The position numbers and the translations under genes were made by a program. The notes beneath the pieces were generated by a model that ran no database searches, was not told the origin of the DNA, and saw nothing but the letters and a program-made list of their open reading frames with translations. Source: a virus (taxonomy: Duplodnaviria; Caudoviricetes). From it: a stretch of DNA of 64,000 nt. The DNA lies in the IMG/VR virus record IMGVR_UViG_3300024272_002379. One strand, 5' to 3'. Below, piece after piece: positions 311 to 16,494 of the stretch. How positions within the stretch are numbered: position 1 is the stretch's first letter; each line of letters starts with the position of its first letter.

Positions 311-685
311 GGGCCTGTAATGGTATCGACAGGGGCATGAAAGTTATGAGTTCGTCCGAGTGGTGACGCTATCACCAACTTTAAAATTAAACGCAAACAG
401 ACCAATGTTAGCGGCTGCCTAGTTGCAGCTACCAAAACACAGTAAGATATTGCTGGTAACTGTTGAGGTTCAAAAACTAGCATAGTATAAGAAGTTCTCT
501 GTATACAACTTAGTGAACAGAGTGGTGGAGCAAGTAAGAAACCTTACTAGCCTAGTATCTCAGGTCTGGAAGACGATAGCCAGTGAGTGAAAGCTGAGAT
601 GAAATAACTCATTTAAGTTCGTAACGACGTAAAGACTTATAATGAATAATGTTTTTGGACACGGGTTCGACTCCCGTCAGGTCCA
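311..685 (+). ncRNA. ssrA: tmRNA, tag ANRPMLAAA* (393-422)
   Basis: 5' GGGCCTG pairs with 3' CAGGTCC-A with G3.U70; T-arm ACGGG-TTCGACT-CCCGT; GCA resume codon and Ala-rich tag. Confidence 0.95.
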
Positions 686-713
686 CTCTATATTACTATA
701 AGGAGACACAAAT

Positions 714-1559: not shown

Positions 1560-1634
1560 CGGAATGTAGTTCAGCTTGGCTAGAACGCTTGTTTTGGGAA
1601 CAAGAGGTCGCAGGTTCGAATCCTGTCATTCCGA
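1560..1634 (+). tRNA. tRNA-Pro(TGG)
   Basis: cloverleaf; CTTGT-TTTGGGA-ACAAG. Confidence 0.95.
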
Positions 1635-1843
1635 CTAAGACTTTTTGTTACCTCTAAGGCATTCTCTTATACGGGTTCCGTATGGGGGATATAAGGAGCG
1701 AGGCGAACCTGAATCTTCCAGTCTCTAAAGAAGAATGAAGTGGCGTTTATGGTTATTATTTCCTTTGTACGACAACAAAGAAATTTAATTCTTTTTCATT
1801 TTTTGGTGTTCCTTTAGGAATAAAGCTGTCTAACGACAGCTAA

Positions 1844-1923
<80 letters not shown>

Positions 1924-2010
1924 TTTTCAAAACGCCATAGTTTTGGAAAACCTCGTTTGTGTAAAAAATCATCGAACCTGGCAGTGTATAGGTTAACTGC
2001 CACCCCACAT

Positions 2011-2083
2011 GCCCCAATTGCACAGTTGGTAGTGCGACTGATTTGTAATCAGTAGGTCGGCGGTTCGAGTCCGTCTTGGGGCT
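2011..2083 (+). tRNA. tRNA-Thr(TGT)
   Basis: ACTGA-TTTGTAA-TCAGT. Confidence 0.95.
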
Positions 2084-2520
2084 TTGTTACATAAGCATTT
2101 ATGCCCTAAGTAGCAGATAGACATAAATGTGTAACAAAACGATGGTCTGCTATAATCGGTAAAGTTGTTCTATCCTGTATAGAGGTTATTGGGTCCGATT
2201 CAGGTAAAACTAACGAAACAGGACGATTTATTGGCGTACTTTAGTGAAAGCAGAGTCGAGTAACTAAAGAGAAAATCAATACCCAGTTCATCATTCTTTC
2301 TGGGTTACGTGAGACGTTAGTATGGTCTCGCCGTAAAGATTAAGCTGTGATATAGTATCAAAGCTATATTGCGGAATCAGGTAGGATATTTATATCAGAC
2401 CTAACGTATACATAAGTTAAAACGAAGGTAATCCAACAGTGAACCGCAGTACAGAAGGTGGGCCTAGTGTTTGTAATACAAAGTTAGACCGTGCGGGGCT
2501 AATGCATGTTTCTTATGATA
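2084..2520 (+). ncRNA. large structured RNA between tRNAs (possibly ROOL-like)
   Basis: ORF-free, many hairpins (TTGTTACA/TGTAACAA, ACCCAG/CTGGGT, GAGAC/GTCTC), tRNA-island context; family not verified. Confidence 0.45.
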
Positions 2521-2528
2521 CGGTATAT

Positions 2529-2611
2529 GCAGCGTTGTGATAATGGTAGTCGGGCGGTCTTGAAAACCGTTGTGTCGAAAGGCATTGGGAGTTCAAGTCT
2601 CTCACGCTGCG
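2529..2611 (+). tRNA. tRNA-Ser(TGA)
   Basis: GCGGT-CTTGAAA-ACCGT, long variable arm. Confidence 0.93.
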
Positions 2612-2750
2612 TTTGGCTAAGCATAGGTAGCCGTACCCAGATGACGAAACGACAGTCGTCATATAACAAGCCTATTGCAGTTTATCATGTACTAAACATG
2701 AAGGCTCTTCTGTTTTAGATGCCAGTCTGTGCAGGAGGGCCGAAGTCTCT

Positions 2751-2839
2751 GGAGTGTTACTCAAGTTGGTGAAGAGGGAACCCTGCTAAGGTTCTAGCGT
2801 CCATTATGGGCGGCGAAGGTTCGAGTCCTTCACACTCCG
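2751..2839 (+). tRNA. tRNA-Ser(GCT)
   Basis: GAACC-CTGCTAA-GGTTC, long variable arm. Confidence 0.93.
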
Positions 2840-3105
2840 TTAAGGCTGAAGTGCAATGCTAAATTTTTATGTAATAGCACGCCCGTAAAAGACGTTGAGG
2901 TTGAGGACAATGAGTATGGAAGTGGCCTTTCGAGGCCTAACACGAAAGTTTGACAATAAGTACCGAATGCATAAGATTGACCCATCTAAATGCTACGTCA
3001 GTGGGAGGAACTTATGTAAATACGTTGATACTACGAAGAAGTATCTGCTTGGAAAACGAATAGGTCATTCCCGTTTCTAGCATTTCTGTACGAAAACAGA
3101 ATTAA

Positions 3106-3199
3106 CGGAAGGTAGCCTAGTGGCTAGGCTTGTTGCGAAAAAACGGGTGAAAGCAACTGGAAACGCCGTTTGACGTGAGTTCGAATCTCACTCTTCCGT
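3106..3199 (+). ncRNA. tRNA-like RNA with pseudoknot replacing the anticodon arm
   Basis: acceptor CGGAAGG/TCTTCCG, D-arm, T-arm GTGAG-TTCGAAT-CTCAC; GTTGC/GCAAC crossing AAACGG/CCGTTT. Confidence 0.65.
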
Positions 3200-3379
3200 C
3201 TATATCATCAATATCAACTTACAACAGCCATGGTAATGTTGTGAGAGCGTCATAGGAAGACGTTCTTCCTACTTCAAAGAGACTGGAGTATGCAACAATA
3301 GCTGATGAGGCTCATGACCCCATAAATTGCAGGATAAATAAACAGCGTCTGCTGAAAGATGACAAAGATGATATTATTT

Positions 3380-3453
3380 GGACCATTAGCTCAGTTGGTC
3401 AGAGCGGTCGGCTCATAACCGATTGGTCCTTGGTTCGAGTCCAAGATGGTCCA
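3380..3453 (+). tRNA. tRNA-CAT, probably Ile2 (lysidine type)
   Basis: GTCGG-CTCATAA-CCGAT; GGACC acceptor like Firmicute tRNA-Ile2. Confidence 0.88.
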
Positions 3454-3503
3454 CTAAGAACTCAATACGCCTCTTAACAATGCGGACCACGTTGAGTCAA
3501 AAA

Positions 3504-3628
3504 CCTGGGGGAGCTGTGGCAAGCAGCCATCTGATAAATGGTGAGTTAAAATATGAAGATACTTTATATCGGCATATTACTATGGTGAAAACCCATTCAT
3601 TAACTAGGTTCGATTCCTGGCTCCAGGA
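3504..3628 (+). tRNA. atypical tRNA-Ile(GAT) with ~61-nt variable-region insertion
   Basis: acceptor CCTGGGG/CTCCAGG, anticodon arm GCCAT-CTGATAA-ATGGT, T-arm CTAGG-TTCGATT-CCTGG. Confidence 0.6.
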
Positions 3629-3783
3629 CTATAATGCCTAACGGCATTAATATGGAATAGAAACCCCAATCAATTCCGTGTCAAACGAATTTCAAGACTA
3701 CCAGGGGGAACCTAACAAGGCTGTTATTTGTGCTGCTTGTGGCGTTAGGCTGGTAGAAGTAACCTACCCCAATTACAATTAAA

Positions 3784-4488
3784 TATTGTGCTTTAAAATG
3801 CACACATATATCCTGGTGAAGATTGTTTAATCAACATGCCAGGGCATATCTACAGTAAGTATGAAATAATATTCGTTACAGGCTTAGCCAGTATGTTTAT
3901 TATGTAATACTGAGACGTATGAGAACATGGGATACTTTGTTCGGTAGTGCGTTTAACGGATATAAATCAAGTCCTAAGGACGTGGTGAAGTTCTGTTATG
4001 AAGAAGGGAACCCTTCAAACGATTGATATGGCGTAACTTATACATAACGATTAGTGTGACATGCTTTTGGTGAACAGAATAGACGCTCTCTGTGAGAGAA
4101 TAACCCTGGGAACTGGATGAGCTGGTAACTCATTACAGATGGCAGGGAATTACCAAACAAGTTCATTCGCTGTGATACCGAGACAACTCGGAGTATAACG
4201 AAAGCATAAGTCGCAAGTAGCCTAAGGCGATAAAAGAGAATATAACAGTGATAAGATGAATGAATGTATCATCAAAACATATTCTGAACGATTCGGGTGA
4301 AAGCTGGAGGTGCCAATCCTTCATGGGTTTTAGACTGATAAAAGGCTGTTAACCTTTATCAGTTGGGGCAAGAAGTATGGAAGTCATGAGCCATGCTCAG
4401 ACTTGTCTCCCCATTCGCATAATAAATCACAATGTATATTTTATAAGATGAATAAAAGTCTATATGGTGTGTGTTTTAAAGCACAATA
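3784..4488 (+). ncRNA. GOLLD-like giant structured RNA
   Basis: 22-bp terminal helix 3784-3805/4467-4488 (2 G.U), ~705 nt, no ORF, in phage tRNA cluster; 3' half resembles GOLLD as I recall it. Confidence 0.7.
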
Positions 4489-4507
4489 CTAACAGCAACG
4501 GAAACTA

Positions 4508-4536
4508 TTGACATTCCATTGCTGTTTTTGTATAAT
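4508..4536 (+). promoter_or_regulatory. sigma-A promoter
   Basis: TTGACA-17-TATAAT, 12 nt before tRNA-Tyr. Confidence 0.85.
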
Positions 4537-4548
4537 TACAATCAATTC

Positions 4549-4632
4549 GGGTAGGTAGACCGTAGTTGGTAGCGGGCCAGACTGTAAATCTGGTGCCTTC
4601 GGGCTCCGTTAGTTCGATTCTGACCCTGCCCA
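4549..4632 (+). tRNA. tRNA-Tyr(GTA)
   Basis: CCAGA-CTGTAAA-TCTGG. Confidence 0.93.
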
Positions 4633-4819
4633 TTTACATCAAGGACGGTTGGTGACAATTTATTTGTCAAAGGGATAAGGGCAATACATGTTACCGCTTA
4701 TCGTGTAGATGTGTAGTGCAAAGTGTATTGGTGTGAGATTGTTTCCATATTAGAGAAACAGCCAATCTTAAATGTGAAATATCTAATTAGAGAAGGATAA
4801 AGTAACAGCTTTGTATTAT

Positions 4820-4891
4820 AGAATATTAGCTTTAACGGCAAAAGCACACGGCTGATAACCGTGGTCAGCGGTTCGACTCCGCTATATTCTG
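4820..4891 (+). tRNA. tRNA-Ile(GAT)
   Basis: CACGG-CTGATAA-CCGTG; AU-rich acceptor AGAATAT/ATATTCT. Confidence 0.85.
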
Positions 4892-5112
4892 TTCTTTGTG
4901 AGTGTGACTACTTACAATGACCTAAAACGGCTCGTAAACTTGTAGAAAGGGCAGGCCGACGGGTAAGAGTGCCGCAAGTACCAAATAACCCTGAGGGTAA
5001 AACTGGGTTCGCCTCTTTTTGAGCACGGGATGCAGAAAAGAATAGACATCTCTCAAAGTTTAGGTAAATAAACAGCTTAGGTTGGTAACCTCTTAGTCAG
5101 AAATAACCATAT

Positions 5113-5185
5113 TGGGTATTAGCTCAGTCGGCAGAGCACATGGCTGTTAACCATGGTGTCGTAGGTTCGAGCCCTACATACCCAG
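5113..5185 (+). tRNA. tRNA-Asn(GTT)
   Basis: CATGG-CTGTTAA-CCATG. Confidence 0.95.
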
Positions 5186-5487
5186 TTTAAATCAAACTGA
5201 AACGAGTCAGGCCCAATCGCTCGATTAAGTATGTGAGGAAAGTGAGGTTGGTTGCCAGCTTACTCAAGACTTCGTGTGCTTGAGGACAGCCCATTTATGG
5301 GTCCCCACTGGTTGTAAAATGTCTTCGCATTTAAAGTGGTGTTGTAAAATACATTCCGCTTAATCTTTAGTTTGGTTTTATTTGGAGAGACATGTTGTAG
5401 CGGTTTCTACGTATGTACAAAGGCTCTGGACAAGTCTTATTTTTTGAAACAGCAAGCGTGCGATTATCAGGTTAGTCTCTCCAGTAT

Positions 5488-5561
5488 AGCGGGGTAGAGC
5501 AGTCAGGCAGCTCGCAAGGCTCATAACCTTGAGGTCATAGGTTCAAATCCTATCCCCGCCA
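5488..5561 (+). tRNA. tRNA-Met(CAT), initiator-like
   Basis: 1:72 A/C mismatch, GCGGGG acceptor, CAAGG-CTCATAA-CCTTG. Confidence 0.88.
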
Positions 5562-5636
5562 CTCATGAAAACAAGTGATTGTTTTCTGATATCAGGCATT
5601 TATCGGGTTCGAATAGATGTAGGTATTGTTTTTAAT

Positions 5637-12110: not shown

Positions 12111-12533
12111 TTGATAAAGAAAACTCAACCATATGAAAAGTTAGTGGATTATGTAAAGGACAATCCACAAAAAGGATTAACCATTCCACATACAGAAATT
12201 GAAACAATTATCGGAATTCCTTACAAAAGTAGCAGATACTCATATCATGTTACTAAGGCAAACGATAAATTAACACAGGTTTCATTAAGACTGGAACCAA
12301 TTAACGGATTTGGTTACCGTATCATTCAGGATAATCAGTATGTTGACAGTATGCGTAAATCGTACAATATGGCAGTTAGAAACATTCAAAAAGCAAAATT
12401 CATTGCTGACAATACTGATGTTACAACTTTAAATGTTGGCGAACATATGGAATGGCATACTGTATCGCTAAAGATTAAGAACGCTCAAAGTGCATTAGAT
12501 GCGATTTTACCAAAACCAACAAATATCCCATAG
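12111..12533 (+). CDS. putative winged-helix protein, companion of RAMP gene
   Basis: helix-turn-helix then LEPINGFGYRI wing; TTG start with GGAGG. Confidence 0.6.
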   Translation: MIKKTQPYEKLVDYVKDNPQKGLTIPHTEIETIIGIPYKSSRYSYHVTKANDKLTQVSLRLEPINGFGYRIIQDNQYVDSMRKSYNMAVRNIQKAKFIADNTDVTTLNVGEHMEWHTVSLKIKNAQSALDAILPKPTNIP

Positions 12534-12543
12534 GAGGGAACAA

Positions 12544-13005
12544 ATGGCAAACGAATATAATTATGATGCTGCGATAAAAGTAATTCTTGACGCATTTACA
12601 GTAGGAACAAATGTTACATATGAACAATTAGAAGTTGCAATGGGATTAAAATCTCCTATTACATCAGCAACTCCTGCAAACAATTGTGCTCTTTCAAAAC
12701 TTAAACGTCGTCTTAAAGAAGAACATGGCTTAGTTATGAAAAGTGCCAATGTAAAAGGTGGCGAAAACAATTACTATGTCATTTCTAAAGTTAAAGATAA
12801 TGTAATTAGCAAGAAAGAATCCAATTCAGATAAGGATTCTAATTATGAAGCTTTATCAAAAAACAATCAGAAACTCTACATGGAATTGGAAAATGCAAAA
12901 GCTGCTAACGCAGCATTACAGGAAAAATATATTGCATTGCAGGAAAAAGAACTGGAGTATATTACAATCATCCAGTCTTTAATGGCTCTTGCAGGCATCG
13001 CATAG
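12544..13005 (+). CDS. putative winged-helix plus coiled-coil protein
   Basis: VTYEQLEVAMGL..LKRRLKEEHGL..YYVI; start moved to RBS-supported 12544. Confidence 0.55.
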   Translation: MANEYNYDAAIKVILDAFTVGTNVTYEQLEVAMGLKSPITSATPANNCALSKLKRRLKEEHGLVMKSANVKGGENNYYVISKVKDNVISKKESNSDKDSNYEALSKNNQKLYMELENAKAANAALQEKYIALQEKELEYITIIQSLMALAGIA

Positions 13006-13015
13006 GAGGTATTCT

Positions 13016-13516
13016 ATGGCAATAGTAGGAGAATGGATACCACAGTCTGGCTACAAAGGTAAAGCAGATGCAAACAAAGTAGCTTACGAAATTGAAACCA
13101 TTGGAATCAGTAACACTACGGATGAGTTTAATACTCAGGAAATGGTAGATTATGCTCGTAATAATCCAGGGTCAGAATTACATAAGTTATTTGAATGGAA
13201 CGATAGCGTTGCTGCTGAAGCATATCGAAATCAGCAAGCACGAGATATTTTACGTTTCTTAAAAATTACTGTTGTTGATGATACGACTCAGACTAAAAAT
13301 CCTACATTAGTTAGGTATTTTGTTAGTACTGGTAATCATGATGGTATGTATAAGAAAACAGAACCTATATTCCAGAATGCTTCAGAAGCAGATAGGGTAT
13401 TAGAAAATATGAGAAGAGACGCTGAAAACTTTATTAATAGATACAAAGCATATCTCAGTCTCAATCCAAATTTATCTAACGCTATTACAGCTTTACAGGC
13501 AGTTGTTAATCCTTAA
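13016..13516 (+). CDS. conserved phage protein adjacent to RAMP gene
   Basis: VDYAR..SELHKLFEWNDSVAAEAYRNQQAR motif; RBS at 13016. Confidence 0.7.
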   Translation: MAIVGEWIPQSGYKGKADANKVAYEIETIGISNTTDEFNTQEMVDYARNNPGSELHKLFEWNDSVAAEAYRNQQARDILRFLKITVVDDTTQTKNPTLVRYFVSTGNHDGMYKKTEPIFQNASEADRVLENMRRDAENFINRYKAYLSLNPNLSNAITALQAVVNP

Positions 13517-13523
13517 GTTTTAT

Positions 13524-14238
13524 ACCTTGCTGTATATATATTGGCTTTAATTGGTCAATGAAAATACAACAAATTAGGACAAACCAATCCAGCAGAGAAC
13601 ATTATCAGCATACTACAGGACATAAGCAGGATAGGACATCACAAACGGCTCGTTAGAGCCTTTATATATACAGCAAGGTTGTTGTATAAAGCTCATTATA
13701 GGACAGAATAGCTCATAGCAGATGATATCATTAAAATACATAATAACACAAAGTCTTTTATAATCTCTTATATGTATATCGACTTTAAATGCTTAGAGTC
13801 AATATACATGTAAGAGAGGACAGGACAACTCAGTGCATTTCTACCACAACAAATGACAATGTATAACAAAGCAGAGGGGCGATTTTCGCCCCATTTTTAT
13901 GAATACATATATTGGCTTTAATGGTCAATAGAACAATACAGTGCAGAGCAGTATATAATAGCTCAGTTAAGAATACCATAGCATAACACAAATGGCTCTT
14001 AGAGCCTTTATATGTGTTCATAAATAGATATATTGACTTTAGCAGTCAATAAGCTCAAAAGACCGTAGAACAGGACAGCTCATTACAAAGTAGTTCAGGT
14101 TAAAACAAGCGAAAACAAAGGCTCGTTAGAGTCAATGTATGTGTTTATGAAACACAAAAGCACAAAGACAGCATAATACATGTCAGTGCAACATAGGATA
14201 TTACAAATCATTACAAAATCCTATTGAAAATCAATAGG
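13524..14238 (+). repeat. array of six 5-nt-periodic (NYA-NN)n tracts in repeated hairpin scaffolds; putative guide-RNA array
   Basis: invariant A every 5 nt over 80 units; repeated scaffold arms ATATYGRCTTTA...TTAGAGYC inside long inverted repeats. Confidence 0.9.
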
Positions 14239-14256
14239 TAGAAAGCGAGACGCATT

Positions 14257-14913
14257 ATGGCAGCTAAAGTTACAGAAGAAGTAAAAGAGATTCAGAACAA
14301 AATTAATTTCGCTACAGCAACAATTACAATTGTTGGCGATAGTGACCTTATTCTTAACAAAATGAGAGATAGCACTACTCAGGAACTTGCAGATAAACAG
14401 GAAGGTAAAGTACAGGGTACAAAGAAACCTGTAAACATGTACGAGCATCTTGTTGGTTCCATTCATTGGCTCAAGGGAGAAGAAACAGACTATACAGAAG
14501 AAGGCTGGTTGAATGCATTAAAGAATAATGTTCCAGGTTATCCATCTTCAGGTATGAAGAAAGCATTATGTGATGCTGTTGTTCGTGTATTAGGCGAAAC
14601 ATATAGCACAAAGTTCAATGCTAACGTACAGATTCTTAATAGCTTCTTACCAATCGAATTTGGTTCAAGTGCTTATGATAAATCATTATTTAGCCCTCAG
14701 AAGGGTAGTCCAGTTCTTTGTTACAGAAATGTATTCAGAGATTGGAAAACAACATTTACAATTAAATATATTCCAGACAATTATTCATTAGACCGTATCA
14801 TCGAAGTTATTAACTGTGCAGGTTTTGCATGTGGTATCGGTAGCCACAGACCATCAAGTAAAGGTGGCTCCAACGGTATGTTCCACGTAGAATCCGTTAT
14901 GGAAGTAGTTTAA
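14257..14913 (+). CDS. stand-alone Cas7/RAMP-like RNA-binding protein
   Basis: beta1 ITIVGDSDLILN, PSSGMKKAL, YRNVFRDW, C-terminal Gly loop AGFACGIGSHRPSSKGGSNGMF. Confidence 0.8.
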   Translation: MAAKVTEEVKEIQNKINFATATITIVGDSDLILNKMRDSTTQELADKQEGKVQGTKKPVNMYEHLVGSIHWLKGEETDYTEEGWLNALKNNVPGYPSSGMKKALCDAVVRVLGETYSTKFNANVQILNSFLPIEFGSSAYDKSLFSPQKGSPVLCYRNVFRDWKTTFTIKYIPDNYSLDRIIEVINCAGFACGIGSHRPSSKGGSNGMFHVESVMEVV

Positions 14914-14921
14914 GTACATAT

Positions 14922-15650
14922 GGGAAGGAAAACCCTATAATAAACCGCTAAGATGAAGGCAGACCAAGGCTGTTGCAGGACCTGAAAAGGCGTTCGCACT
15001 TAGATGTAATAAAAGCGAAGATTAGGAGACTCATATGCAAAACCCTGACATATGACATGGAGAAATACCGTTGAATGCAACCAGGTAGTTAAGATTTTAT
15101 ACCGACAGAAACGACCGTTACTGCGTAGCTCAAAGTCGGAAGTTTACTTAATTGAAATAAAAAACAAATAGAGAGCAAAGGTAACAGCTAAGATATTACG
15201 ACCTCATGGGTGCCAACCACGCACACGAATCCGTATTAAATCTGACGTAGAGGCAAGTTCACTTAGATGCAATCAAGAACTTTAGCGTGGGTGCTTCACA
15301 ACTGCATAAATATTTTGAGAAGGAAAACTCGCTATCAAACCGCTAGGTTATGGGTCCCTTACCATGTTTAAAGACCTTGAACTCCTAGAGCGTAAGCATT
15401 TGTAACAAAAGTTTTAAAATTGAATAGTGGCTTTAGTGGTTTGATGGAAACCATCTCCCAGGAGGGGACTGGTGCGAATGAACCCAGGAGACAGGACTAA
15501 CTCCTTACACCAGCGAGTCTTGAATTAGACCGCTCGGAGAAACGATGCCCAGCTAAGTTTTCAGAGGGATAAGGTATGCTTTGCAGGAAACCCTCGGTGC
15601 TGTTTGCCTATTTCTCCTACCAGGCTTCTTAGATGCAATAAAAAGACCGA
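14922..15650 (+). ncRNA. array of five related pseudoknot-like RNA units
   Basis: repeated GCTAAG...CTTAGATGYAAT with variable 36-70 nt inserts. Confidence 0.65.
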
Positions 15651-15871
15651 TAAAACAAAATAGGATATAGTTGGTAATATACGTAGTTTCGGGTTCGAGG
15701 AACCATTTTCTGTACCATCCACAGGAATAAACGAAGAGGAATTACAAGTACATTGGCGACAAGGTGTGCGAACAAAGACGACCATTACAGTCATTCATGG
15801 TTAATCGTGTACAAAATGTATGAGAGTATCATATGCACTGCTCTCATACTACTTGTCGAACGAAATAAGTA

Positions 15872-15899
15872 TTGAAATATTTTTCAAATCTGTTACAAT
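15872..15899 (+). promoter_or_regulatory. sigma-A promoter (extended -10)
   Basis: TTGAAA-16-TACAAT with TG; precedes tRNA-Gln. Confidence 0.6.
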
Positions 15900-15912
15900 A
15901 TATAACACATAT

Positions 15913-15984
15913 AGGGCTATCGCCAAGCGGTAAGGCACAGGATTTTGATTCCTGCATCCGTTGGTTCGAATCCAACTAGCCCTG
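15913..15984 (+). tRNA. tRNA-Gln(TTG)
   Basis: CAGGA-TTTTGAT-TCCTG. Confidence 0.93.
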
Positions 15985-16069
15985 TTCATAGTGGTCAGTG
16001 TTAATGCACACTGTAAATAAAGTAGCCTCTCGATTGGCTTTCAATGGTCAGCTTTAACCACTATAACAT

Positions 16070-16244
16070 ACACGGGTTGTCTGAGCTGGTGAGAGATGAT
16101 ATCTTATCAATAGGCCAGTGAACTAGGTGCCAACCACTCTGATTAGAGTAGGGACATGTGAAAGTTATAAGGGAAGGAACGCTGATACGTAGCATTGTTT
16201 TGGTAACTTGATGAGTAGTAGAGGTTCGATTCCTTGCCCGTGTG
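16070..16244 (+). ncRNA. tRNA-like RNA with ~100-nt insert in place of anticodon arm
   Basis: ACACGGGT/GCCCGTGT acceptor, GAGG-TTCGATT-CCTT T-arm, CTTATCAA/TTGATGAG helix. Confidence 0.55.
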
Positions 16245-16259
16245 TTAAAGACCAAGCAA

Positions 16260-16332
16260 AGGTAAGTAGCTCAGTTGGGAGAGCACCCTGCATTGAGCGG
16301 GGTCGTCGCAGGTTCGAGTCCTGCCTTGTCTT
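16260..16332 (+). tRNA. atypical tRNA (loop CATTGAG, nominal TTG; identity uncertain)
   Basis: canonical D/T arms, A at position 33, two G.U in acceptor. Confidence 0.6.
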
Positions 16333-16494
16333 GATATAAGCTGAAGTCTTGAAGCCAAGTATAGTCATGCGGTGGGTGGATATTTACATTAGGTCCAATG
16401 AGATTAGACTTTAGTATCTATCAAATAGAACTGTTGACTAAAAATAATGCCCAGCAAAAACCATATGCTGGGCTATTTTATTGGAGGAAATTAT

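What the first reader, a model, noticed from the sequence alone, without database searches (positions are those of the whole stretch)
12111..14913. Candidate RNA-guided system: stand-alone Cas7/RAMP-like protein plus a non-CRISPR array of 5-nt-periodic guide tracts
Seen: 14257-14913 has the RAMP/Cas7 pattern (beta1 ITIVGDSDLILN, PSSGMKKAL, C-terminal Gly-rich loop), and there is no other cas gene or CRISPR array in the window. Just upstream are six tracts (A 13559-13645, B 13688-13752, C 13815-13875, D 13928-13992, E 14050-14119, F 14163-14217). Each has an invariant A every 5 nt in a semi-constant triplet (mostly ACA/ATA/TCA/GCA) alternating with a freely variable dinucleotide: 17+13+12+13+14+11 = 80 units with three 1-nt slips. 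Five tracts end ACA-AA; C has ACA-AA one unit before its end. Established: Cas7 proteins polymerise on guide RNA with a fixed step and flip out bases. Inference: each subunit grips one triplet and presents NN, giving a gapped target code. From memory this resembles recently reported phage 'VIPR' loci with GGY/NN repeats (not verified); here the constant motif is NYA, so it would be a distinct variant.
Basis: partly seen in the sequence, partly recalled or inferred. Interest (0 to 1): 0.97.

Follow-up and report, generated by a model that had tools for sequence, protein, structure and literature searches.

The report
Phage VIPR system with AYA-NN guides
An uncultured ~210-kb gut phage carries a variant of the recently described VIPR system (a lone Cas7-like protein plus guide RNAs made of 5-base units), which uses A-Y-A instead of G-G-Y as the fixed part of each unit; one guide spells, codon by codon, a conserved DNA-polymerase motif of rival phages.

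Summary

- **Protein.** Gene 14257-14913 encodes a RAMP-fold protein (Z 12 to Cmr/Csm3). It is homologous to the solved SUSP1 Vipr protein.
- **Tracts.** The six upstream tracts are real arrays of A-Y-A/NN pentamers: 80 units with three 1-nt slips.
- **Conservation.** Among 98 relatives' loci, all 80 viral ones scanned keep such arrays upstream of the gene, same strand. 92 of 98 keep a conserved accessory gene (13016-13516, phrog_15946), which also accompanies GGY-type Vipr genes in actinophages.
- **Target.** Read by the published 1-nt-skip rule, the inner 15 units of tract A match 30 of 30 positions in family-A DNA polymerase genes of at least 85 viral contigs. Guides from five related loci hit other motifs of the same gene, at skip 1 only.
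- **Self-targeting.** Complete relatives of this phage lack that polymerase.
- **Differences from published VIPR.** There is no G in the scaffold triplet. The G-loop Asp-Trp pair is replaced by Ser-His/Gly. Three of the six guides are enclosed by ~30-bp closing stems.
- **Open.** Targets of guides B, C, E and F were not found. Nothing is known about expression or binding.

VIPR and non-canonical repeats are already in 2026 preprints, and this scan noted an AYA-NN locus in another ~210-kb phage. I rate it a new variant of a known kind.

The parts
13016..13516 (+). Conserved accessory gene (166 aa, phrog_15946), a vap-type partner of Vipr; fold unresolved (possibly a winged-helix-like N-domain plus a C-terminal helical hairpin)
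   Evidence: A homologue lies directly upstream of the array in 92 of 98 related loci. phrog_15946 match 2.4e-14. The same family lies next to Vipr in Mycobacterium phage Saal and Gordonia phage Pipp. No Pfam or PDB match.
13523..13557 (+). 5' arm of the closing stem of guide A
   Evidence: Pairs with 13646-13680: 30 bp, -44.7 kcal/mol.
13559..13645 (+). Guide tract A: 17 AYA/NN units (two 6-nt units). Its inner 15 units match a family-A DNA polymerase motif
13646..13680 (+). 3' arm of the closing stem of guide A (includes a small hairpin followed by a T-rich run, 13647-13660)
13688..13752 (+). Guide tract B, 13 units, shared with relative L002; target not found
13764..13817 (+). Strong hairpin between tracts B and C
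   Evidence: fold of unit C.
13815..13875 (+). Guide tract C, 12 units (one 6-nt unit), shared with L001 and L002; target not found
13876..13900 (+). Intrinsic-terminator-like hairpin plus T-run after tract C
13895..13927 (+). 5' arm of the closing stem of guide D
   Evidence: Pairs with 13993-14025: 29 bp, -35.9 kcal/mol.
13928..13992 (+). Guide tract D, 13 units, unique to this phage; one tentative target (24 of 26 positions)
13993..14025 (+). 3' arm of the closing stem of guide D
14005..14048 (+). 5' arm of the closing stem of guide E (overlaps the 3' arm of D)
   Evidence: Pairs with 14120-14161: 38 bp, -41.8 kcal/mol.
14050..14119 (+). Guide tract E, 14 units, shared with L001; target not found
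14120..14161 (+). 3' arm of the closing stem of guide E
14163..14217 (+). Guide tract F, 11 units, conserved in all three ~210-kb relatives; target not found
14220..14238 (+). Hairpin between tract F and the vipr start codon
14257..14913 (+). vipr homologue: 218-aa minimal RAMP protein whose G-loop reads G-I-G-S-H-R
   Evidence: phrog_4652.
12111..13005 (+). Two ORFs (140 and 153 aa) inside the finding's span; not conserved with the system, function unknown
   Evidence: Weak homologues only in L002, where they lie just downstream of vipr. No family match. Not paralogues of each other.

Best explanation
This is a VIPR-family RNA-guided DNA-recognition system of a large gut phage, with a non-canonical guide scaffold. 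The six tracts are transcribed on the + strand as guide RNAs. Vipr protomers (14257-14913) assemble one per pentamer, sequester the A-Y-A triplet and expose the two variable bases. The exposed dinucleotides pair with a DNA strand while every third target base is skipped, so a guide reads codon positions 1-2 and ignores the wobble base. Guide A is aimed at the most conserved motif of the family-A DNA polymerase genes of ~50-kb phages and prophages of gut Firmicutes. Binding most likely silences that gene and so handicaps competing phages. The accessory protein (13016-13516) assists in an unknown way. Long stems formed by the flanks of guides A, D and E probably mark processing or assembly boundaries. 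Shown here: homology, fold, conserved locus architecture, flank pairing and skip-1-specific target matches. Inferred: transcription, filament assembly, the silencing outcome, and the roles of the stems and the accessory protein.
For: Protein. A profile of the family hits PDB 36pp_D, 'SUSP1 Vipr protein', at E 1.8e-5. hhalign against a SUSP1-type Vipr gives 95.5% probability, E 1.6e-8. The AF2 model has pLDDT 87.8. The top structural matches are all CRISPR RAMPs: Foldseek E ~1e-6 and VIA-align Z 12.2.

Array. All 80 viral loci encoding homologues (42-89% identity) carry 2-10 period-5 A tracts directly upstream of the gene on the same strand. The pooled unit logo is A 79% / Y 85% / A / N / N. 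Related phages share the guides nearest the gene and differ in the distal ones.

Target. A 9-unit skip-1 core of guide A has at least 116 exact hits in IMG/VR, whereas three other cores of 18-19 fixed bases gave none. The full guide matches up to 33 of 34 positions. In 85 of 114 targets the inner 15 units match 30 of 30, across 104 distinct 51-mers with free wobble bases. The gene is a family-A DNA polymerase: PF00476 at 1e-23 and phrog_17 at 5e-152.

Independent guides. Five guides from other loci match other motifs of the same gene: L001 28/28, L017 25/26, L091 20/20, L084 21/22 and L039 24/28. At a threshold of 0.9 or more, skip 1 gave 5 of 88 guides, skips 0, 2 and 3 gave none, and shuffled guides gave 1 of 264.

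No self-target. None was found in the window. Complete relatives lack this polymerase.

Accessory gene. It is linked in 92 of 98 loci and is homologous to the neighbour of Vipr in GGY-type actinophage loci.

Flank pairing. Cognate flanks pair at a mean of -27.5 kcal/mol against -15.4 for non-cognate flanks, p = 4e-22.
Against: There are no expression, RNA-binding or DNA-binding data. Guides B, C, E and F have no convincing target, and D has only one hit. The scaffold triplet lacks the G bases on which the solved recognition mechanism rests. The residues that read them in SUSP1 (D177, W178) are Ser and His here, so how the scaffold is recognised is unknown. Tracts A and C contain 6-nt units that a strict one-protomer-per-5-nt filament might not tolerate. 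No sigma-70-like promoters stand out. The transcribed strand is inferred only from gene orientation and + strand terminators.
Confidence: 0.85

Rival explanations
1. Same RNA-guided recognition, different outcome: the Vipr-guide complex recruits a nuclease or another effector (through the accessory protein or a host factor) and destroys or nicks the target rather than silencing it.
For: The VIPR preprint reports types with nuclease or helicase accessory genes. The accessory protein here has no assigned fold, so an effector or adaptor role is not excluded.
Against: The accessory protein shows no nuclease, helicase or other enzyme family. The characterised systems with small non-enzymatic accessory proteins act by repression.
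Confidence: 0.12
2. The complex targets RNA (mRNA or antisense transcripts) rather than DNA, as type III and type VII Cas7 backbones do.
For: The closest solved folds are RNA-targeting Csm3, Cmr4 and type VII Cas7.
Against: All six decoded polymerase guides have the same sense as the target ORF, so they cannot pair with its mRNA. The characterised Vipr binds double-stranded DNA.
Confidence: 0.05
3. The tracts are not guides. They would be DNA-level elements (phased A sites for a DNA-binding protein, origin-like iterons) or structural RNAs, and the polymerase match would be fortuitous.
For: There is no direct evidence of transcription. The tracts are A-rich, and the flanks contain palindromic TTGGC/GCCAA-type motifs that could be protein-binding sites.
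Against: A 30-of-30 match, repeated independently by five guides from other loci and only at skip 1, is far beyond the shuffled controls. The signal is strand-specific and always lies next to a Vipr homologue. A period of 5 does not fit DNA curvature (10-11 nt).
Confidence: 0.03
4. An orphan CRISPR-derived Cas7 that borrows crRNAs from a host CRISPR array, with the tracts unrelated to it.
For: RAMP fold; half of the family members weakly match Pfam RAMPs PF03787.
Against: No CRISPR repeats or cas genes in the window. The sequence homology is to Vipr, not to a Cas7 subtype. Linkage to the pentamer arrays is universal in the 80 viral loci scanned.
Confidence: 0.01

Closest known systems
Type II VIPR of Escherichia phage SUSP1 and the Pseudomonas fulva prophage (bioRxiv 10.64898/2026.04.26.720920, 10.64898/2026.04.26.720927, 10.64898/2026.10.15.759431; PDB 36pp)
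   Same: Phage-borne minimal RAMP protein homologous in sequence and fold. Adjacent same-strand arrays of 5-nt units with 3 fixed and 2 variable bases, 11-17 units per guide. One-base-skip code that lands on codon wobble positions. Targets lie in competing phages. No self-targets found.
   Different: The scaffold triplet is A-Y-A, not GGY. The G-loop Asp-Trp pair that reads the two G bases is Ser-His (Ser-Gly in most relatives). The accessory gene is unrelated to vap1. There is no pseudoknot tail; instead a terminal ACAAA unit plus a hairpin, and ~30-bp closing stems around three guides. The phage is a ~210-kb gut phage, and the decoded target is a polymerase motif rather than a satellite or a lysogeny regulator.
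Non-canonical VIPR-like clusters found by entropy periodicity (Evo-PIN/COMPASS preprint, bioRxiv 10.64898/2026.10.21.760802)
   Same: Period-5 arrays with fixed triplets other than GGY, next to Vipr-like folds. That preprint reports 21 clusters with 6,318 sequences.
   Different: The text names GAC, CAC, WGT and TGH triplets, not AYA. The full list is in a figure I could not read, so this clade may or may not be among them. No targets, G-loop comparison or RNA architecture are given there.
GGY-type VIPR loci of actinophages (Mycobacterium phage Saal gp51-gp52, Gordonia phage Pipp gp42-gp44)
   Same: Vipr homologue (phrog_4652) next to a homologue of the accessory protein of this locus (phrog_15946; hhalign 98.6% and 99%).
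   Different: Those arrays are canonical YNNGG and their G-loops keep Asp/Glu-Trp. The accessory gene lies downstream of vipr there and upstream of the array here.
CRISPR class 1 backbone proteins Cas7/Csm3/Cmr4
   Same: RRM-based RAMP fold with a glycine-rich loop (Z 10-12). Polymerisation along a guide with periodic base flipping is the established mechanism of the fold.
   Different: No CRISPR array, no Cas10, Cas5, Cas6 or other cas genes, a 5-nt rather than 6-nt step, and 10-19% sequence identity.

Membership tests
VIPR (Vipr protein + vrRNA array + vap) | Protein homologous to characterised Vipr | tested here: met
   Profile hit to PDB 36pp_D, SUSP1 Vipr, E 1.8e-5. hhalign 95.5%, E 1.6e-8, against a SUSP1-type Vipr. 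Shared phrog_4652.
VIPR (Vipr protein + vrRNA array + vap) | Minimal single-RRM RAMP fold with a glycine-rich loop | tested here: met
   AF2 pLDDT 87.8. Foldseek and VIA-align top hits are all Cas7-type RAMPs, Z up to 12.2. The thumb was not examined separately.
VIPR (Vipr protein + vrRNA array + vap) | Adjacent tandem 5-nt repeats, 3 fixed + 2 variable bases, about 9-16 units per RNA | tested here: met
   Six tracts of 11-17 units. Present in all 80 viral loci scanned. Positions 4-5 are near-uniform in composition.
VIPR (Vipr protein + vrRNA array + vap) | Fixed triplet GGY or a G-containing relative (NNNGG, YNNNG, NNNNG) | tested here: not met
   The triplet is A-Y-A, with G at 2-7% in the fixed positions. 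No GG-periodic array occurs anywhere in the window.
VIPR (Vipr protein + vrRNA array + vap) | Targets read by NN pairing with one skipped base | tested here: met
   Computational only. Guide A matches 30 of 30 inner positions in 85 targets. Five independent guides match at skip 1 only; skips 0, 2 and 3 and shuffled guides serve as controls.
VIPR (Vipr protein + vrRNA array + vap) | Invariant structured 3' tail capping the repeat tract | tested here: inconclusive
   Five tracts end in ACAAA followed by a hairpin. Three are closed by long stems formed by their flanks. There is no resemblance to the SUSP1 pseudoknot tail, and the RNA ends are unknown.
VIPR (Vipr protein + vrRNA array + vap) | Small accessory (vap) gene in the locus | tested here: met
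   The phrog_15946 gene is linked in 92 of 98 loci and lies next to Vipr in Saal and Pipp. Which of vap1-6 it corresponds to could not be tested, and it is not vap1.
VIPR (Vipr protein + vrRNA array + vap) | Borne by a virus or provirus, without CRISPR array or cas genes | tested here: met
   The window holds tmRNA, ROOL RNA and 12 tRNAs and has ~210-kb phage relatives. No CRISPR-like repeats and no PADLOC hits.
VIPR (Vipr protein + vrRNA array + vap) | vrRNAs expressed, bound by Vipr, RNP binds dsDNA and represses | not testable with these tools
   Needs small-RNA sequencing, pull-down, EMSA and reporter assays.
CRISPR-Cas class 1 effector (Cas7 backbone) | CRISPR repeat-spacer array and further cas genes (Cas5, Cas6, Cas10 or Cas8, Cas1-2) | tested here: not met
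   No direct-repeat families of 22 nt or more within 120 nt of each other. No tandem arrays. The neighbours match no defence model.

The most novel reading that the evidence does not exclude
AYA/NN VIPR would be a distinct, not yet described VIPR type with three features. (1) A Ser-for-Asp change in the G-loop, with loss of the stacking Trp, re-specifies the scaffold triplet from GGY to AYA. This would give an orthogonal protein-scaffold pair and a first hint of a scaffold recognition code: acid with G1, Ser with A1, Glu-Asp with GTT. (2) Guides are delivered as loops closed by ~30-bp stems. (3) The lineage convergently aims guides at three conserved motifs of family-A DNA polymerase genes. 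A jumbo phage could then silence replication of whole families of competing gut phages with a single wobble-blind guide.
Probability: 0.45. Interest if true: 0.72.

Novelty: new variant of a known kind. Interest (0 to 1): 0.6.

Why it matters
VIPR is a months-old class of RNA-guided DNA recognition, proposed to predate CRISPR. This locus shows that the fixed scaffold of the guide can be completely G-free while the 5-nt step and the one-base-skip code stay the same.

It also points to the G-loop residues that change along with the scaffold. That is directly testable (swap the residues, swap the triplets) and would give orthogonal Vipr-guide pairs for multiplexed gene control.

The decoded natural target is the most conserved motif of a replication enzyme, read at codon positions 1-2 only. 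This shows how one guide can cover more than a hundred different nucleotide sequences. It adds polymerase genes of gut Firmicute phages to the known targets of phage-against-phage interference.

Tried and rejected
**Target scans that led nowhere**
- F core: 0 hits in IMG/VR. In metagenomes, 24 hits at about the chance level.
- C core: 0 hits.
- B core: 0 hits.
- E core: 33 hits at about the chance level, best 23 of 28.
- D: one 24-of-26 hit in a truncated ORF (L222). A second core found no coherent family.

**Self-targeting**
- None in the window at any skip.
- No F target in two complete relatives with up to 3 mismatches.

**Guides against each other's VIPR loci:** no hits.

**Hypervariable NN between conserved flanks:** not seen. 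When both flanks are at least 80% identical the tract is nearly identical too. Diversity arises by whole-cassette turnover.

**Known RNA families:** no Rfam family and no hammerhead ribozyme in the array.

**Promoters:** sigma-70-like sites are not enriched. The flank motif ATATATTGRCTTTA is confined to the array.

**Other period-5 A signals in the window:** these are coding-sequence chance events, for example 47670.

**Accessory protein fold**
- Foldseek found nothing below E = 1.
- VIA-align found only generic helical hairpins and weak winged-helix-like rows.
- The protein atlas gave only unnamed viral clusters.

**Tools and data not available**
- No whole genome is held for the window.
- Supplementary tables of the preprints are not held.
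- DNA for one distant homologue was unavailable.
Full report
**1. Observation**

The 740-bp intergenic region 13517-14256 holds six tracts at exactly the coordinates given. With the invariant A as position 3 of a pentamer, the unit counts are:
- A: 17 units, with extra bases at 13604 and 13625.
- B: 13 units.
- C: 12 units, with an extra base at 13840.
- D: 13 units.
- E: 14 units.
- F: 11 units.

That is 80 units with three slips. Position 2 is C or T in 83% of window units, and positions 4-5 show no preference.

Unbroken A chains of 11-14 units occur in B, D, E and F. A combined Y-A periodicity score of 18-20 out of 20 is reached nowhere else in the 64 kb, and shuffles did not exceed 18. A simple Fourier scan on A did not flag the region, because A is also frequent off-phase.

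The window has no CRISPR-like repeats.

**2. The protein**

ORF 14257-14913 (218 aa) has no Pfam hit of its own. It does have 180 homologues in the word-indexed search and 1,095 cluster representatives at E <= 0.001.

- A 50-sequence profile hits one PDB sequence, 36pp_D, 'SUSP1 Vipr protein', at E 1.8e-5 over the C-terminal strand/G-loop region.
- hhalign against the Vipr of a SUSP1-type phage (ESCO56) gives 95.5% probability, E 1.6e-8.
- Both proteins fall in phrog_4652.
- The AlphaFold model (pLDDT 87.8) matches only CRISPR RAMPs at the top: Foldseek E ~1e-6 to Csm3, and VIA-align Z 12.2 and 12.1 to Cmr and Csm3 subunits.

**3. Literature**

VIPR is real.
- It comprises a Vipr protein, a vap accessory gene and vrRNAs of 9-16 YNNGG units.
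- One protomer binds per repeat. G1 is read by H17 and D177, G2 by R138 and W178, and Y3 sits in a narrow pocket.
- NN pairs with DNA while one target base is skipped.
- Targets lie in satellites and prophages.
- Seven types are described, all with GGY or G-containing variants.

A later preprint reports 21 period-5 clusters with other triplets, naming GAC, CAC, WGT and TGH. AYA is not named in any text I could read, and supplements are not held.

**4. Conserved locus**

All 80 IMG/VR loci encoding homologues (42-89% identity) carry 2-10 period-5 A tracts just upstream of the gene on the same strand. Many carry one more tract downstream. The pooled logo is A 79% / Y 85% / A / N / N.

Eighteen further loci lie in MAGs of gut Clostridia such as Lachnospiraceae, Oscillospiraceae and Ruminococcus.

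ORF 13016-13516 (phrog_15946) has a homologue directly upstream of the array in 92 of 98 loci.
- It is homologous to the gene next to Vipr in Mycobacterium phage Saal (hhalign 98.6%; phrog_15946 at 3.7e-89) and in Gordonia phage Pipp (99%).
- It is therefore a recurrent Vipr partner.
- It is unrelated to SUSP1-type vap1 and to the LESphi2 neighbour.
- Its fold is unresolved.

The two ORFs at 12111-13005 are not conserved with the system.

**5. Array dynamics**

Close relatives share the guides nearest the gene and differ in the distal ones. Cassettes appear in different combinations.

The window shares B, C and F with L002, and C, E and F with L001. Guides A and D are its own. Where both flanks are conserved, the tract is conserved too. 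Diversity therefore comes from cassette turnover.

**6. RNA architecture**

Guides A, D and E are enclosed by stems formed between their 5' and 3' flanks:
- A: 30 bp, -44.7 kcal/mol.
- D: 29 bp, -35.9 kcal/mol.
- E: 38 bp, -41.8 kcal/mol.

B, C and F lack such stems. Across 133 distinct guides of the family, cognate flanks pair at a mean of -27.5 kcal/mol against -15.4 for non-cognate flanks (p = 4e-22). The stem sequences differ from guide to guide.

A terminator-like hairpin follows C, and smaller hairpins with T-rich runs follow A and D, all on the + strand. No Rfam family matches.

**7. Targets**

I tested this.

Three other cores of 18-19 fixed bases gave none.
- Extending to the full guide, matches reach 33 of 34 positions.
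- In 85 of 114 targets the inner 15 units match 30 of 30. The encoded peptide is RQKGKIAELALGYGGS.
- Only the first unit and the terminal ACAAA unit mismatch.
- The 114 targets comprise 104 different 51-mers with freely varying skipped bases.
- The match runs straight across both 6-nt units of the guide.
- The gene is a ~650-aa family-A DNA polymerase (PF00476 at 1e-23; phrog_17 at 5e-152). It is common in ~50-kb phages of gut Clostridia and in Streptococcus prophages.

Guides that played no part in selecting these loci hit the same gene at skip 1 only:
- L001, array slot A: 28 of 28, peptide MFQFYGANRTGRWA, 128 codons upstream of the guide A site.
- L017: 25 of 26, the same motif.
- L091: 20 of 20, peptide AMGALDMGLK.
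- L084: 21 of 22.
- L039: 24 of 28.

Among 88 guides with at least 10 inner units, a match of 0.9 or more occurred 5 times at skip 1. It occurred 0 times at skips 0, 2 and 3, and once in 264 shuffles.

All six decoded guides are sense to the ORF, so they cannot pair with its mRNA. This favours DNA as the target.

The complete 210-kb relatives lack this polymerase, and the window has no self-target. One target contig (L179) comes from the same sample as relative L001.

Targets of B, C, E and F were not found, and D has one tentative hit.

**8. Scaffold recognition**

Four GGY-type Vipr proteins from phages of E. coli, Gordonia, Pseudomonas and Mycobacterium keep an acid-aromatic pair in the G-loop (D-W, E-W, D-Y, D-W). 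All four have YNNGG arrays.

The AYA clade has Ser (at least 90% conserved) followed by Gly or His. A homologue with Glu-Asp is flanked by perfect GTT/NN arrays. The pattern 'acid with G1, Ser with A1' is suggestive, not proven.

**9. Verdict**

This is a genuine VIPR-family system that works by the published gapped code. It has a G-free scaffold, a changed G-loop, stem-closed guides, and a decoded natural target in rival phages' polymerase genes.

VIPR itself and non-canonical repeats in general are already in preprints. This scan has also noted an AYA-NN locus in another ~210-kb gut phage (e1-5709135). I therefore rate it a new variant of a known kind, with interest 0.6.

Noticed in passing
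window 311-688, 1560-5562, 3788-4481: The phage carries its own tmRNA (tag ANRPMLAAA), a cluster of ten tRNAs and a full-length ROOL RNA (231 bits).
   Followed up: no
window 14914-16446: A 1.5-kb stretch downstream of vipr has no + strand ORF longer than 46 aa. It holds two tRNA-Gln(UUG) genes (15912-15985, 16259-16333). The rest is unexplained and may encode other RNAs.
   Followed up: no
L308:1-60 and 768-830 (JGI 3300062531 contig): A Vipr homologue 32% identical to the window's, with Glu-Asp in its G-loop, is flanked on both sides by perfect GTT/NN pentamer arrays. This is another non-canonical scaffold.
   Followed up: partly
window 13604, 13625, 13840: Three 6-nt units occur inside guides A and C. 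The polymerase target of A is continuous across both of its 6-nt units, so the extra base must belong to the non-pairing part of the unit.
   Followed up: partly
L222:10459-10848 (IMG/VR 3300018495_003548): This is the only near-complete match of guide D (24 of 26 positions). It lies in a truncated ORF of unknown family at the end of the fetched stretch.
   Followed up: partly
window 12111-13005; L002:3829-4569: Two small ORFs upstream of the system have weak homologues (37-38% identity) immediately downstream of vipr in relative L002. They stay near the locus without being a fixed part of it.
   Followed up: partly
window 14005-14025: The 5' arm of guide E's closing stem overlaps the 3' arm of guide D's stem, so the two full-length stems cannot form on one transcript at the same time.
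   Followed up: no
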